Below are positions 8,265 through 13,087 of a stretch of 64,000 nucleotides of DNA, one piece after another (the first letter of the stretch is position 1; each line of letters opens with the position of its first letter). The DNA comes from Candidatus Eiseniibacteriota bacterium (GTDB lineage: Bacteria; Eisenbacteria; RBG-16-71-46): positions 3,712,001 through 3,776,000 of the forward strand of contig OY970342.1 in NCBI GenBank assembly GCA_963717505.1. Reading direction: 5' to 3'. Made by a program: the position numbers and the translations under genes. The notes beneath the pieces are model-generated. The model made no database searches and was not told the origin of the DNA. It worked only from the letters and a program-made list of their open reading frames with translations.

Positions 8265-9198
8265 ATGAACCTGGTCCGTGACGCGCTGCTCGCCAGCTCC
8301 GAAAACGCGTGGCTGCGCCGCCAAGCCACCCAGTCGCGCATCGTCCGGCGCGCGGTCTCGCGCTTCATGCCGGGCGAGACCCTGGACGACGCGCTCGCTG
8401 CGGCAACGGCGCTCAAGGAACGCCGCATGGGAACGATCCTCACCCACCTCGGCGAAAACGTCGGCGACCGCGACGAAGCGGCCGCGGTCACCCGCCACTA
8501 CCTGGACGTCCTCGAACGGATTCCCCAGTCGGCGATCGACGCCGAGGTATCGGTCAAGCTCACCCAGCTCGGCCTGGATCTCGACGAGTCGTTCGCCCTC
8601 GCGAACCTCGTAAAGATCGCCGAGCGCGCCCGTCAGCTCGGCAACACGATCTCGGTCGACATGGAATCCAGCGCCTACACGCAGCGCACGCTGAATGTCT
8701 ACCAGCGACTGCGCGCGAGCCATCGAAACGTCGGACTCTGCCTGCAGGCCTATCTGTTCCGCACCCCGGGCGATCTCGAGGCCCTGATTCCCGGCGGCGG
8801 CGGCATCCGGATGGTCAAGGGAGCCTACAAGGAACCGCCCGACCTCGCGCATCCCGCCAAGCACGACGTCGACGAGAGTTTCTTCACGCTGACCACCCGC
8901 CTGCTTCACACCCGAGGCGCGCCAGGCGGGAATCCGCCCGACGATCGCCACCCACGATCCGGTCCTGATCGAGCGCATTCAGGCGTTCGCCGCCCAGCAC
9001 CGGATCTCCTCCGATGCCTACGAGTTCGCAATGCTGTACGGGATCCAGCGGCCATTGCAGTCGCGTCTGGTGGCCGAGGGCCACCGGCTGCGAGTGCTGA
9101 TCAGCTACGGCTCGTACTGGTTCCCGTGGTACATGCGCCGCCTGGCCGAACGACCGGCCAACGTCCTGTTCGTGTTGCGCGGCGTGTTCGGGGGCTGA
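8265..9198 (+). CDS. Monofunctional proline dehydrogenase (PutB-like); one +1 frameshift near 8907, probably a sequence error
   Basis: SRFMPGE, VSVKLTQLG, VDMES, LQAYL, RMVKGAY in frame 1; continues in the next frame as IATHD...YEFAMLYGI...YGSYWFPWYMRRLAERPAN to TGA at 9196-9198. Confidence 0.88.
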
Positions 9199-9202
9199 GC
9201 CC

Positions 9203-9673
9203 GTGCTCGAGAGCATTCGATCGTTCTTCCGGCGCGCCGCCGATCCCGTTCCGCCCAAGCCCAGCACGACTTCCGAACCGGATCCGGCCACCCAGCGGCT
9301 GCGGATCGCCGCATGCGCCTTGTTGCTCGAGATGGCGCACGCCGATGAAGAGTTCTCGGACGAGGAGCGGCTGCACGTGGAAGAGTCGATCGGCCGGCAC
9401 TTCGACCTGCCGCCGGAGACCGCGCGCGAGCTGATCGCTCTCGCCGACGCGGAGCGCCGCGAAGCCACCGACCTCTACCAGTTCACCTCGCTGATCAACG
9501 CGCACTACGACGAGGGCCAGCGCATGGTTCTGGCGGAGGTGCTGTGGCGGGTGGTGCTCGCCGACGGCGAGCTGACCCGCCACGAGGATTACCTGATGCG
9601 CAAGCTGGCGTCGTTGCTCGAGCTCAAGCCGGGTTACCTGGGCGAGGCGCGCCGGCGGGCGTCGGGACCCTAG
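9203..9673 (+). CDS. TerB family (tellurite-resistance-like) protein
   Basis: ALLLEMAHADEEFSDEE...DLYQFTSLIN...LWRVVLADGELTRHEDYLMRKLASLL pattern of TerB-like proteins. Confidence 0.88.
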   Translation: MLESIRSFFRRAADPVPPKPSTTSEPDPATQRLRIAACALLLEMAHADEEFSDEERLHVEESIGRHFDLPPETARELIALADAERREATDLYQFTSLINAHYDEGQRMVLAEVLWRVVLADGELTRHEDYLMRKLASLLELKPGYLGEARRRASGP

Positions 9674-9682
9674 CCCGGCTCG

Positions 9683-10222
9683 CTACATCCGCCGGATCAC
9701 CTGGTAGCGATGCGGGTCGTCGATGAACTGCGCCCGGGTCGAGTCGTTCTCGAAGAAGTAGGGACCGCCGACCCAGTAGACTTCGGGCGAGCGTGTCGAC
9801 GGGCGAAAGCGATTGCCGGTCACCGGATCCCGGACGATGCCGGTCCACAACGCCGGCGACTTGATGAACCGGTTCAGCGTGCGCAGGCTCGAGAAGCGAT
9901 ACACCTCGCCGTTGACGCGGAACTGGAGCTCGGGTTTGAGCGAGCCCAAATGACGTGGATCGACCGGGTCCCACAGCGCGCGCTGCAGGTGAAACAACGC
10001 CCAATCGGCGTCGACCACCGGCCCCAACGGGGCCGCGATCGGCACTCAGGTGAACTGGGACGAAGGCGGTCCGGCCAGGGCGTCGAGCGGATCGGCGCGC
10101 GGAATCGCCGGTGACGGAACGCCGGCGCCGGGACTGGATTCCGGGATCGCGGCTGCGTGCGCGACAGCGAGCGACCCGAGCGGGAACACGCACAACATCA
10201 AGATCGACGCGAACCAGCGCAT
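9683..10222 (-). CDS. Exported tandem YHS/TRASH-like domain protein with in-frame UGA at codon 59 (candidate selenoprotein)
   Basis: ATG 10222 lies 1 nt after the HTTM stop; signal peptide MRWFASILMLCVFPLGSLAVAHA; TGA at 10048-10046 is followed in frame by VPIAAP... and two DPV...Y-x-F...F...P units; hairpin follows the UGA. Confidence 0.7.
10012..10041 (-). promoter_or_regulatory. Candidate bacterial SECIS hairpin
   Basis: mRNA after UGA reads GUGC-CGAUCG-CGGCCCC-GUU-GGGGCCG-G-UGGUCG: 7-bp perfect upper stem, GUU loop starting 18 nt after UGA, one bulged G, 6-bp lower stem with two G-U pairs. Confidence 0.5.
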
Positions 10223-10223
10223 G

Positions 10224-11651
10224 TCAGTCGTCCATGATCGTGCCGCCCCGCGAATTCTCGGCACGATCCTGCAGAGAAACCGAGAGCGGAACGATCCACG
10301 TGTTGCCGCCTTCGGTCATGCGTGCAGCAGCGAGGTCGGCGCTCGAGTCGATCAGCGGCTGGAACCGCCGGCCGTTGAGCGAGGCCCACAGGTCGACGTA
10401 GATGCGGGGCCTCACGCCCCACTGCTTCTCGTATCGATCCGCCAGCCATTGGGCGTAGCGATGGACCAGGCGCGGGCGCGTGGTCATCTTGCGGAACTGG
10501 CGCCGGGTCAGGATCTCGCTGGGATCGTGCTCGATCCGCTGGCCGGTCTTGGGATTCTCGATGATGACGGAGCGCAGTTCGCCGTCCTTTTCGCGAAGCT
10601 TCATGTGCCAGCTCAGGATGTGGCCCTCTTCGGTCCAGCTGACGTTGCCGCCGTAGAGGAAGTGGCGCACCGGCATCAGGACCTGGATCACGAGCCAAAG
10701 GGTCATGCCGATCATCACGCCGGCGCCGAGTGGCGCGGTGGCCCGGGCGGGCGCTGGCACCGGCTTGGGTTTCGCATCGCGGGGCGTGGCGACGAACAAG
10801 CCGCGCAGGAACGCGAGCGCCCGGCGCGGCCAGTCGGGCGTCAGGAAGATGAAGGTCGAGCCCATCGCCAACCACGGGAAGATCCCGATCTCGAACAGAT
10901 TCAAGTTCATGAAGTGGAACATGAACGACCACAGGATCCCGAACAGCCGGGTCTTGCGGAACAATAGCAGGAAGCCGATCGACAGGTCGTAGAACAATCC
11001 GCCGTAGGACATGAGCATCGCGAACCAGGACTCGAGCATGAACGGGCCGATCAGCGGCATGGTCTCGGCTTCGGCCAGCCAGATCGCCAACGGCTGACCT
11101 TGCAGCCAGTCGGCATTGACCTTCGCGATACCGGCGTAGAAGTAGACGATGAACAGCTGGGCCCGCAGCACCAGGATCGTCCAGTAGGGAACGGTCGCGA
11201 CTTCCCCGGGCTTGAGGCGCCGCCGGCGCGGGCCGAGCGCCCACACCCGGTCGGCCGGCATCCAGATGAGGAGGAACGCGATCAGCGCGACCAGGTAGAA
11301 GTGATTGAGGTAATTCGATTCATCGATGGTGAAGATGTACAGGTGGGTCAGGAACAAAGTGACGATCGCGGCGCGATAGAACAGACCGAGGCACACGCAG
11401 ACCGCGGCAACCCCCATAACCGTGTAGAGGACGTACATGCCGGGCGGCGGGATCAGGCGGAGGAACTCGAATCCCGGGAGCGTGAACGTCATGATCGGGT
11501 CTTCGAAGTAGCGCTTGATCCAGCCGTGGTTGAAGTAGCGATAGACTTCGACCGCCATGCAGCCGCCGAACCACATGCGGAAGAACGCCAGCGAGGCGCC
11601 GTCCACCGGGGAGGCGATCTTTTCGCGGAAGCGGCGGAGCCAGTCGCTCAC
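10224..11651 (-). CDS. HTTM domain / vitamin K-dependent gamma-carboxylase-like membrane protein
   Basis: GTG 11651 overlaps the DCC1 stop (GTGA); DGASLAFFRMWFG, YLNHFYL, VYFYAGIAKVNADW, FHFMN..LFEIGIFPW and WTEEGH..SWHMKL motifs; multiple TM segments. Confidence 0.9.
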   Translation of the reverse strand: MSDWLRRFREKIASPVDGASLAFFRMWFGGCMAVEVYRYFNHGWIKRYFEDPIMTFTLPGFEFLRLIPPPGMYVLYTVMGVAAVCVCLGLFYRAAIVTLFLTHLYIFTIDESNYLNHFYLVALIAFLLIWMPADRVWALGPRRRRLKPGEVATVPYWTILVLRAQLFIVYFYAGIAKVNADWLQGQPLAIWLAEAETMPLIGPFMLESWFAMLMSYGGLFYDLSIGFLLLFRKTRLFGILWSFMFHFMNLNLFEIGIFPWLAMGSTFIFLTPDWPRRALAFLRGLFVATPRDAKPKPVPAPARATAPLGAGVMIGMTLWLVIQVLMPVRHFLYGGNVSWTEEGHILSWHMKLREKDGELRSVIIENPKTGQRIEHDPSEILTRRQFRKMTTRPRLVHRYAQWLADRYEKQWGVRPRIYVDLWASLNGRRFQPLIDSSADLAAARMTEGGNTWIVPLSVSLQDRAENSRGGTIMDD

Positions 11652-12094
11652 GTCAGGAAACGCTCGCGGTCGGCGGGAGTCGGCATGCGGCAGGACTTGC
11701 GCGTGCCGAACCACCGGTAGCGGTTGCGCGCGACGAAGGCATACACCGGATCGCGCACGAATCGTGGAATCGCCAGCAGCCACGAGGCCAGCCGCCAGGG
11801 TCCGCGCACGTGCCGCAGGGCGCGCAACACCGCGGTCGACCTCAGGTAGGCCCGACCACCCTCGACCAGGATCAATGACTCGAGCGGATCGCCGGCAATC
11901 GCGAACTGCCGGATCAGTCGGCCGCCGGCGTCCGATTGGAGTGCCGCGAACCGGAGCCGCCGCCCCGGATCACGGTCCATGAGGAAGTTCACCGTGCCGT
12001 CGCAGAAGTTGCAGACGCCGTCGAACAGGACGACCGGCGCGTCCACGGCAGCCGCCTGCGAATCCGGGGTCATGGAGGGGGAAAACGCGCTCAT
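11648..12094 (-). CDS. DCC1-like (DUF393/YuxK) thiol-disulfide oxidoreductase
   Basis: VVLFDGVCNFC (DxxCxxC), LRFAALQS, RDPVYAFVARNRYRWFG; true start 12094 (or 12073), not the 798-aa extension in the track. Confidence 0.92.
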   Translation of the reverse strand: MSAFSPSMTPDSQAAAVDAPVVLFDGVCNFCDGTVNFLMDRDPGRRLRFAALQSDAGGRLIRQFAIAGDPLESLILVEGGRAYLRSTAVLRALRHVRGPWRLASWLLAIPRFVRDPVYAFVARNRYRWFGTRKSCRMPTPADRERFLT

Positions 12095-12154
12095 GGCGGG
12101 CGCAATGATACCACGGCTTGTCCGGCGGCTGGTCCGGTGGTAGACAGCCCCACC

Positions 12155-13087
12155 ATGTTGCTCCGCGCCTTCTGCCTGACTGCCGGGCTCCTGATTGCGT
12201 GTCTTGACCCGGCCTTGTCCGCCGACCCGCCGTCGGGGACGCGGCCTGATAGCGCCGGTACGCGCGTGGTCCTGCTCGGGACCGGCACGCCCAATGCCGA
12301 CCCGGAGCGCTCGGGCCCCGCGGTCGCGGTAGTGGTCGGCGGCCGGGCCTACCTGGTCGATTCGGGTCCGGGCGTCGTCCGCCGGGCAGCCGCGGCGGCG
12401 AGTCGAGGCATCGCGGCACTCGATCCGGCGAAGCTCGACATCGTGTTCCTCACCCATCTGCACAGCGATCACACCGTCGGACTCCCCGATCTCGTGTTCA
12501 CGCCCTGGGTGCTCGAGCGCCGCGGGCCATTGCGTGTTTTCGGTCCGCCGGGGACACGCGCGATGACCGACCATGTGCTCGCCGCCTGGCGCGAGGACAT
12601 CCACATGCGCAACCAAGGGCTCGAGCCCGACAAGACCGAGGGCTGGCGGGTGGTGGCCCGCGAGGTTCGATCCGGAGTCGTCTACCGGGATTCGAACGTG
12701 GTCGTGCGCGCGATCGCGGTTCCCCACGCCAACTGGCGCCACGCGTTTGCCTATCGCTTCGACACTGCCGACCGCTCGATCGTCATCTCGGGCGATACGC
12801 GACCCAGCGACAGCCTGGTGGTCGCGTGCGACGGCTGCGACGTCCTGGTCCACGAGGTCTATTCCGCCGAGCGCTTCAAGACGCGCTCGCCCGAGTGGCA
12901 GCGCTACCACTCCGACGCTCACACCTCGACCACCGAGCTGGCCGAGGTCGCGCGCCGGGCGCGGCCGGGCTTGCTGGTGCTCTACCACCAGCTGATGTGG
13001 GGCGCGACCGACGAGGACCTGGTGCGCGAGGTCCGGGCGGGCTGGGATGGGCGCGTCGTTTCGGGCCGCGACCTCGACGTGCACTGA
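12155..13087 (+). CDS. Exported MBL-fold metallo-hydrolase (RNase Z/arylsulfatase-like)
   Basis: Signal peptide; LLGTGTP, THLHSDH metal-binding motif, ISGDT, DVLVHE, HT, LYH. Confidence 0.9.
   Translation: MLLRAFCLTAGLLIACLDPALSADPPSGTRPDSAGTRVVLLGTGTPNADPERSGPAVAVVVGGRAYLVDSGPGVVRRAAAAASRGIAALDPAKLDIVFLTHLHSDHTVGLPDLVFTPWVLERRGPLRVFGPPGTRAMTDHVLAAWREDIHMRNQGLEPDKTEGWRVVAREVRSGVVYRDSNVVVRAIAVPHANWRHAFAYRFDTADRSIVISGDTRPSDSLVVACDGCDVLVHEVYSAERFKTRSPEWQRYHSDAHTSTTELAEVARRARPGLLVLYHQLMWGATDEDLVREVRAGWDGRVVSGRDLDVH

What the first reader, a model, noticed from the sequence alone, without database searches (positions are those of the whole stretch)
9683..12094. Three-gene redox/modification operon: DCC1 CxxC oxidoreductase - vitamin K carboxylase-like HTTM protein - putative Sec-YHS protein
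Seen: the genes are translationally coupled (GTGA overlap at 11648-11651; TGA-C-ATG at 10220-10226) behind a TATCAT -10 box at 12105-12110. The HTTM protein keeps NHxYL and YFxAGxxK motifs and a C-terminal lumenal-type domain. Established: the corresponding His/Lys motifs are implicated in catalysis by eukaryotic gamma-glutamyl carboxylase, which needs a reduced naphthoquinone; DCC1/DUF393 proteins are thioredoxin-fold and known to associate with HTTM genes; the bacterial substrates are largely unknown. Inference: a membrane quinone-linked modification or redox relay in which a cytoplasmic thiol reductase and an exported selenol protein flank the HTTM enzyme. I do not know of a description of this trio.
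Basis: partly seen in the sequence, partly recalled or inferred. Interest (0 to 1): 0.7.

Follow-up and report, generated by a model that had tools for sequence, protein, structure and literature searches.

The report
Overlooked selenoprotein beside unrelated carboxylase pair
The three genes are real and tightly packed, but relatives almost never keep them together, so they are probably not one machine; the valuable part is the third gene, whose internal stop codon likely encodes selenocysteine in a predicted exported protein of a widespread family absent from the catalogues checked.

Summary
All three genes, both junctions, the TATCAT box and the motifs are as described. The trio is not a conserved system. 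The third gene's family is in 131 of 206 genomes of the class, an HTTM gene in 7. Outside this genome HTTM never shares its neighbourhood, and DCC1 comes no closer than 7.3 kb. Of 70 other HTTM loci, one (a close relative with the same flanking genes) has it downstream.

The third gene is very likely a selenoprotein. TGA holds at the aligned position in 46 of 47 loci read. Cys homologues exist, a covarying 7-bp hairpin follows the codon, a signal-like stretch precedes it in frame, and the genome has selA, selB, selD and tRNA-Sec. It fails the cut-off of the one curated YHS selenoprotein model and fits no row of a 2026 list of 119 families. It appears to be a cut-down form of a three-repeat YHS/TRASH protein that lost its metal-binding cysteines but kept the selenocysteine.

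The HTTM protein keeps most GGCX catalytic residues; its substrate is unknown. The scan found this selenoprotein family before on other DNA (e1-1417607).

The parts
12105..12113 (-). Extended -10 promoter-like box (TG-G-TATCAT), 10 nt before the DCC1 ATG; likely near-leaderless transcript
   Evidence: sequence; 53 TGnTAnnAT sites genome-wide; function inferred
11648..12094 (-). DCC1-like (DUF393) thiol-disulfide oxidoreductase, 148 aa, C28-x-x-C31, no hydrophobic segment, so likely cytoplasmic
10224..11651 (-). GGCX-like membrane protein, HTTM plus lumenal domain, 475 aa; N116/H117/K177/W182/D222/F258/M350 match human N159/H160/K218/W223/D263/F299/M401; ends where human residue about 510 lies
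   Evidence: residue roles from PMC12647623 passages
9683..10222 (-). Predicted exported selenoprotein, 179 aa: signal-like N-terminus, low-confidence arm carrying F-T-U59, helix with H78, two cysteine-less YHS/TRASH-type repeats
10151..10222 (-). Predicted signal peptide (hydrophobic residues 3-21, AHA-AA site by eye; no signal-peptide predictor run)
   Evidence: in-frame hydrophobic stretch in 32 of 35 loci, 0 of 35 in either other frame
10046..10048 (-). In-frame TGA, likely selenocysteine 59
   Evidence: TGA at this column in 46 of 47 form B/C loci read; Cys in P0005
10019..10035 (-). SECIS-like hairpin, 7-bp stem, GUY loop, starting 10 nt after the TGA; the window copy carries a compensatory U-A to C-G change

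Best explanation
The locus is likely a lineage-specific joining of two independent units: a rarely held DCC1 plus GGCX-like carboxylase pair, and a common stand-alone gene that likely encodes an exported selenoprotein. How it would work: (1) SelB with tRNA-Sec binds the hairpin after the UGA and inserts selenocysteine 59 (inferred; about 95%). (2) The protein is exported and processed near residue 24 (inferred). (3) Selenocysteine 59 sits on a flexible arm ahead of two YHS/TRASH repeats. The longer relatives carry N-x2-C-x23-C-U-x2-C, a YHS/TRASH metal site with the selenocysteine next to a ligand. The window's form has lost those three cysteines and kept the selenocysteine. I commit to capture and hand-over of a soft metal ion (Cu(I) or Hg(II) type) by the selenolate, helped by H78 and, in most relatives, C127 (inferred; about 45%, against about 35% for selenol redox catalysis). 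(4) The HTTM protein is likely a menaquinol- and O2-dependent carboxylase or epoxidase acting on an unknown outer-side substrate, with DCC1 as a loose accessory (inferred). The three genes probably share one transcript here without sharing a task.
For: Against linkage: P0001 family in 131 of 206 class genomes, 69 of 88 in the family; PF05090 in 7 of 206, 2 of 88. Of 130 other genomes with a listed YHS-type place, 4 have an HTTM match: three on other contigs, one 1.78 Mb away; nearest DCC1 is 7.3 kb away for form A and 767 kb for forms B/C. G099 has DCC1-HTTM (52% and 54% identity) with no YHS gene in 13 kb. YHS found in 1 of 70 other HTTM loci. Its neighbours elsewhere are mixed housekeeping genes. 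For selenocysteine: TGA at the aligned column in 46 of 47 B/C loci; 56 of 82 full-length form A matches have one TGA and 26 have none; Cys at that column in the 6 TGA-free form A genes read and in P0005. Hairpin 99.1% paired, 13 cells changed on both sides, 0 of 500 shuffles as high; third positions of codons +5 and +6 invariant. No shared start codon after the TGA. tRNA-Sec, selB, selA, selD in the genome. Form A folds as three repeats, pLDDT 95; B and C form one branch, SH-aLRT 99.
Against: One metagenome contig, L110 (HTTM 75% identical, DNA 78% identical), keeps HTTM directly followed by the TGA gene, so the junction is older than one strain. Both junctions look translationally coupled. 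Most comparison genomes are fragmented assemblies, and only 44 of 59 metagenome loci had 700 bp or more downstream. selA is in 182 of 206 genomes, including those with Cys forms, so it does not separate the two forms. The metal role has no direct support: no metal transport or resistance genes among 70 neighbours scanned, the model is uncertain around U59 (pLDDT 60-68), and the window copy has Thr at position 127. The shuffle test ignores kinship.
Confidence: 0.75

Rival explanations
1. One reading: DCC1, the HTTM enzyme and the selenoprotein form one membrane redox relay or modification system.
For: Tight coupling of the three genes; same HTTM-to-YHS junction in L110; DCC1 near GGCX-like genes in 8 of 70 loci, L105 and L109 being near-copies; HTTM and DCC1 in one 487-aa frame in G039; menaquinone genes present.
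Against: Selenoprotein family in 131 of 206 genomes versus HTTM in 7; no adjacency in 130 other genomes; G099 has the pair without it; L110 also keeps TerB and proline dehydrogenase, so this is ordinary local synteny.
Confidence: 0.1
2. The selenoprotein is an independent envelope redox enzyme: U59 attacks a peroxide or disulfide and is resolved by C127, by the U-x4-C cysteine of form B, or by an outside thiol.
For: Most characterised selenoproteins are redox enzymes (PMC13188914, section 7); C127 kept in 31 of 34 form C and 9 of 9 form B rows; the canonical metal ligands were lost while U was kept.
Against: No thioredoxin-type fold; the window copy and two others lack C127; no distance between U59 and C127 could be measured.
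Confidence: 0.35
3. The TGA is a true stop: a short upstream peptide and a separate 110-120 aa YHS protein, as gene callers record it (P0004, P0125).
For: In the window a GTG follows the TGA directly; databases hold the two halves separately.
Against: The stop is always TGA, never TAA or TAG, at that column; first start codon after it is at +1 in 6 of 35 loci and absent within 15 codons in 9; Cys homologues are unbroken; the hairpin covaries.
Confidence: 0.03

Closest known systems
YHS domain-containing (seleno)protein, NCBIfam NF041384 (first reported in Olavius symbionts, PMC1976440; motif GxU in PMC13188914 Table 1)
   Same: YHS-type module, in-frame UGA with downstream hairpin, Cys homologues.
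   Different: Scores 14.7 bits for the window protein and at most 30.8 for 10 relatives, cut-off 70; the weak match lies in the Cys-less repeats, not at the selenocysteine; motif is F-T-U or F-C-U-x-x-C, not GxU.
YHS/TRASH treble-clef modules (PF04945; M. phlei adenylyl cyclase copper sensor, PMC4626032; L24e; C-terminal module of methane monooxygenase hydroxylase; NosL)
   Same: Fold of each repeat (1fyz_A Z 5.4, rmsd 3.2, 51 aligned; L24e chains Z about 3.5; NosL 7og7 Z 3.4, all weak). Form A keeps the ligand spacing D/N-x2-C-x22/23-C-x3-C.
   Different: Exported tandem repeats; repeats 2 and 3 lack ligands; the window form lacks all canonical cysteines and keeps only the neighbouring selenocysteine.
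Human gamma-glutamyl carboxylase GGCX (PDB 9wfn, 9l20, 9bvk) and bacterial relatives such as MloH
   Same: E 1.2e-62 over residues 3-461; N159, H160, K218, W223, D263, F299, M401 equivalents kept.
   Different: Y395 is His, K217 is Ala, L394 is Gly, and human residues beyond about 510 have no counterpart; no substrate known.
HTTM-DCC1 fusion with DUF5819 (bioRxiv 10.64898/2026.08.19.745780, passages read)
   Same: HTTM and DCC1 together in a GGCX-like setting.
   Different: Here HTTM carries its own lumenal domain and DCC1 is a separate upstream gene.

Membership tests
Conserved three-gene DCC1-HTTM-YHS system | The three genes are adjacent in relatives | tested here: not met
   0 of 130 other genomes with a YHS-type place have HTTM beside it or DCC1 within 7 kb; 1 of 70 other HTTM loci has the YHS gene, a close relative
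Conserved three-gene DCC1-HTTM-YHS system | One transcript | not testable with these tools
   no RNA holder listed; coupling suggests it
Bacterial selenoprotein | Conserved in-frame TGA aligned with Cys in homologues | tested here: met
   46 of 47 B/C loci; Cys in P0005 and 6 form A genes
Bacterial selenoprotein | SECIS-type hairpin just 3' of UGA with G first in the loop | tested here: met
   7-bp stem, GUY loop, compensatory changes at 2 of 7 pairs; the loop-G rule is from PMC1976440 figure legend and recall
Bacterial selenoprotein | selA, selB, selC, selD in the genome | tested here: met
Bacterial selenoprotein | Selenium shown in the protein | not testable with these tools
   needs labelling or mass spectrometry
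NF041384 YHS (seleno)protein | Score above curated cut-off 70 | tested here: not met
   14.7; at most 30.8 in 10 relatives
NF041384 YHS (seleno)protein | GxU motif | tested here: not met
   F-T-U, or F-C-U-x-x-C in form A
YHS/TRASH domain | PF04945 above cut-off 30.3 | tested here: inconclusive
   window protein 19.5; 7 of 10 relatives 30.6-52.2
YHS/TRASH domain | Metal ligand set D/C-x2-C-x22-C-x3-C | tested here: not met
   absent in the window protein; present in repeat 1 of form A (spacing from PMC4626032)
GGCX-like carboxylase | HTTM plus lumenal domain | tested here: met
GGCX-like carboxylase | Catalytic Lys218, Asn159, His160, Trp223, Phe299 | tested here: met
   K177, N116, H117, W182, F258
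GGCX-like carboxylase | Tyr395 and the C-terminal propeptide-clamping region of the animal enzyme | tested here: not met
   H344; alignment ends at human 510
GGCX-like carboxylase | Quinol-dependent carboxylase or epoxidase activity | not testable with these tools
   bench assay needed
DCC1-like (PF04134) | Score above cut-off and N-terminal D-x-x-C-x-x-C | tested here: met
   109.3 bits; D25-G-V-C28-N-F-C31

The most novel reading that the evidence does not exclude
A phylum-wide, uncatalogued family of exported selenoproteins has stripped a YHS/TRASH metal site down to a lone selenocysteine, and in this one lineage that selenol has been recruited as the outer-side partner of a bacterial vitamin K carboxylase, as its quinone-recycling reductant or its substrate: a selenium-driven vitamin K cycle. 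The family half alone is about 75% likely and would merit about 0.5; the figures below are for the full claim.
Probability: 0.08. Interest if true: 0.8.

Novelty: new variant of a known kind. Interest (0 to 1): 0.45.

Why it matters
It adds a widespread, mis-annotated selenoprotein family: databases hold it as two fragments. The family shows three forms (C-U-x-x-C, T-U-x4-C, lone T-U) with natural Cys versions, a ready test set for what selenium does on a metal-binding fold. It also warns against reading this operon as a system. The carboxylase-like gene is one more member of a large bacterial family (1397 hits) whose substrates remain an open question that this locus does not settle.

Tried and rejected
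Complex prediction of the HTTM protein with the 120 residues after the TGA: no answer, score 0.00, no evidence either way, and it left out U59. Sequencing runs: no RNA holder listed; DNA contigs only, and the best holder may be the source sample. Foldseek on the form C model: no match at E 0.001 or better. Fold search with the form A model: best Z 2.5, uninformative. Rfam: 4 matches, all under their gathering scores. Terminator-like sites: 3 found against 1.4 +/- 1.1 in shuffles, all inside genes. selA as a discriminator of Sec versus Cys forms: fails, nearly universal. Imelysin as HTTM substrate (lead from earlier notes): PF09375 not found in this genome, 86.7% complete. Protein atlas: no answer in four calls. 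Haft and Tolstoy 2025 could not be read. TGA as an assembly error: rejected by conservation, although the assembly does show a frameshift nearby. Dropped rows: L027 was left out of the protein alignments (TAG inside its repeats), as were L040, L044, L066, L071, L093 and L100; L044 was left out of the 35-locus hairpin set (contig edge); L073 was counted twice; L101 is form C but was grouped with form A (corrected).

Full report
Observation. On the minus strand lie a DCC1-like gene (12094-11648), an HTTM gene (11651-10224) and an ORF (10222-9683) with one in-frame TGA at codon 59. Pfam gives PF04134 for the first, PF05090 plus PF22777 for the second, and a sub-threshold YHS match for the third. 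The GTGA overlap, the TGA-C-ATG junction and the TATCAT box are at the stated places. The box is an extended -10; TGnTAnnAT occurs 53 times in the genome. The organism is probably a Candidatus Eisenbacteria member; this rests on the name of one 66% homologue, P0108, and on earlier scan notes.

Is the trio a system? No. The third protein has matches in 131 of 206 genomes of the class, 69 of 88 in the family. PF05090 rings in 7 of 206, 2 of 88. DCC1 rings in 124 of 206. I compared 147 listed YHS-type places in 130 other genomes (taken) with the HTTM and DCC1 places. Four of these genomes have an HTTM match: three on another contig and one 1.78 Mb away. The nearest DCC1 is 7.3 kb from a form A gene and 767 kb from a form B/C gene. 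Many of these assemblies are fragmented, but none of the 29 best relative loci has either gene within 1.5 kb. The closest HTTM relative in the class, G099, has DCC1 directly upstream and no YHS gene in 13 kb. From the other side, I searched 70 HTTM loci (59 metagenome, 8 genome-collection, 3 class) with YHS profiles. One, L110, has the TGA gene right after HTTM; 44 of the 59 had 700 bp or more downstream. L110 is 78% identical in DNA and also keeps TerB and proline dehydrogenase, so it shows local synteny in a close relative. This is the main result against my reading: the junction is older than one strain. DCC1 lies near HTTM in 8 of the 70 loci, and G039 has both in one frame, so that pair is a real but loose association. 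It is in print (bioRxiv 10.64898/2026.08.19.745780, passages). The 70 neighbour frames of the YHS gene that I scanned, of 107 listed, are mixed housekeeping genes. About 9 of 35 relatives show a -10-like hexamer just before an ATG, which suggests a promoter of their own (by pattern only).

The third gene is very likely a selenoprotein. I read 70 loci: the 30 best (window included) and 40 picked from the weaker matches. Of 47 short-form loci, 46 have TGA at the aligned column; L100 is broken upstream. No TAA or TAG stands there. P0005 has Cys at that column in an unbroken protein. An in-frame hydrophobic stretch precedes the TGA in 32 of 35 loci and in 0 of 35 in either other frame; no start codon after the TGA is shared. 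A 7-bp hairpin with a GUY loop begins 10 nt downstream: 99.1% of 231 cells pair, 13 cells change on both sides, and 0 of 500 shuffles reach these values. The shuffles ignore kinship, and 5 of 7 pairs never vary. The window copy itself carries a U-A to C-G swap. Third positions of codons +5 and +6 are invariant, while 19 other four-fold sites vary. The motif occurs once in the genome. The genome has tRNA-Sec, selB, selA and a selD with its own TGA. selA is in 182 of 206 genomes, so it does not separate Sec from Cys forms.

Anatomy and origin. Three forms emerged. Form A: signal, N-x2-C-x23-C-U/C-x2-C, then two ligand-less repeats; of 82 full-length matches 56 have one TGA and 26 none (counted by hand). 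It folds as three repeats, pLDDT 95, pTM 0.89. Form B: [FY]-T-U-x4-C as the common pattern. Form C, the window's: F-T-U with no nearby Cys. U59 aligns with the U/C of form A. By the ligand spacing of the M. phlei YHS sensor (D178, C181, C204, C208; PMC4626032, passages), C21, C45 and C49 of form A are the canonical ligands and the selenocysteine is the residue after C45. Form C has lost all three. A quick tree on residues 72 onward puts B and C on one branch (SH-aLRT 99) with C nested (96); all genome-derived rows there are from the window's family. The careful search did not finish and the root is a midpoint, so the order A to B to C is likely, not shown. H78 is kept in 42 of 43 B/C rows and C127 in 40 of 43; the window copy has Thr127. 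In the window model residues 81-170 exceed pLDDT 90 while 1-80 score 54-69. Fold matches are weak and of the treble-clef kind: 1fyz_A Z 5.4, L24e chains about 3.5, NosL 3.4.

Mechanism. Shown: conservation, hairpin, machinery, loss of ligands, lack of synteny. Inferred: recoding (about 95%), export, and function. I commit to soft-metal capture and hand-over by the selenolate (about 45%), because the scaffold is a metal-binding fold and His and Cys are kept beside it. Selenol redox catalysis is close behind (about 35%). No neighbour supports either.

The HTTM protein. It matches human GGCX at E 1.2e-62 over residues 3-461. N116, H117, K177, W182, D222, F258 and M350 align with N159, H160, K218, W223, D263, F299 and M401, whose roles are given in PMC12647623 (passages). 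Y395 is His, K217 is Ala (K217A keeps catalysis: bioRxiv 10.1101/2025.02.09.637231, passages), and nothing corresponds to human residues past about 510. The genome has two PF02621 menaquinone genes and a VKOR homologue, so a quinol cycle is possible without the selenoprotein. PMC12647623 states that such enzymes are broadly conserved in bacteria and that MloH carboxylates aspartate; one search found 1397 relatives among 7997 candidates scored. That a Leptospira homologue has epoxidase activity only is recalled; one search did not retrieve it. The substrate here is unknown.

Comparison with what is known. The only curated YHS selenoprotein model, NF041384 (motif GxU), is missed by a wide margin. 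Table 1 of PMC13188914 (119 families; section 7 parts 1-2 of 3 read) has no row that fits. Full-text searches: YHS + selenoprotein gave 6 papers; three of the four selenium papers I opened at their YHS passages, which name only that other family, and PMC2398784 I saw as a listing only. Selenoprotein + Eisenbacteria and TRASH domain + selenocysteine gave 0. The deep-Sep main text has no YHS or TRASH (supplements not read). Haft and Tolstoy 2025 was not held, and Deng et al. 2026, which the review says lists further candidates from 44,000 genomes, was not seen; either could hold this family. PMC8457098 (one passage) and its listing were used only for NosL as a copper chaperone. The scan noted the same family before on other DNA (e1-1417607; form A in e1-2194421) and this stretch twice; these notes are not counted as support.

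Verdict. Observation confirmed; interpretation partly supported. The operon is probably a local arrangement, not a new system. The selenoprotein family is real, widespread and apparently uncatalogued: a new variant of a known kind. Interest 0.45.

Noticed in passing
window 8268-9198 (+), near 8945: The proline dehydrogenase gene has a one-base frameshift relative to the intact copy in L110; likely an assembly error.
   Followed up: partly
G000:C1:1414996-1415391: VKOR homologue; its downstream part looks out of frame, possibly a VKOR-thioredoxin fusion with an assembly indel.
   Followed up: partly
G000:C1:636162-636749 (L108:5443-6963): Second, distant HTTM gene without a lumenal-domain match, next to a sodium:solute symporter and a PIG-L protein.
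   Followed up: no
G000:C1:3020964-3022153: selD with its own in-frame TGA lies next to tRNA-Sec.
   Followed up: no
L070, L071: Tandem pairs of Cys-form (form A) genes in genomes that have selA.
   Followed up: no
G158:C286:1184-1708 (L027) and G081:C21 (L100): Two damaged-looking copies: an in-frame TAG inside the repeats, and a frame break before the expected TGA.
   Followed up: no
G048:C3:811055, G049:C7:1380388, G050:C1:205041: DCC1-like matches with one in-frame TGA in three genomes of one genus: candidate selenocysteine DCC1 proteins.
   Followed up: no
P0171, P0193, P0195, P0230: Related three-repeat YHS proteins whose cysteine site sits in the middle repeat, or in the first two, instead of the first only.
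   Followed up: no
window 12158-13087 (+) and 9203-9673 (+): Divergent metallo-beta-lactamase-fold gene upstream and convergent TerB gene downstream; the TerB frame ends 10 nt from the selenoprotein stop.
   Followed up: no
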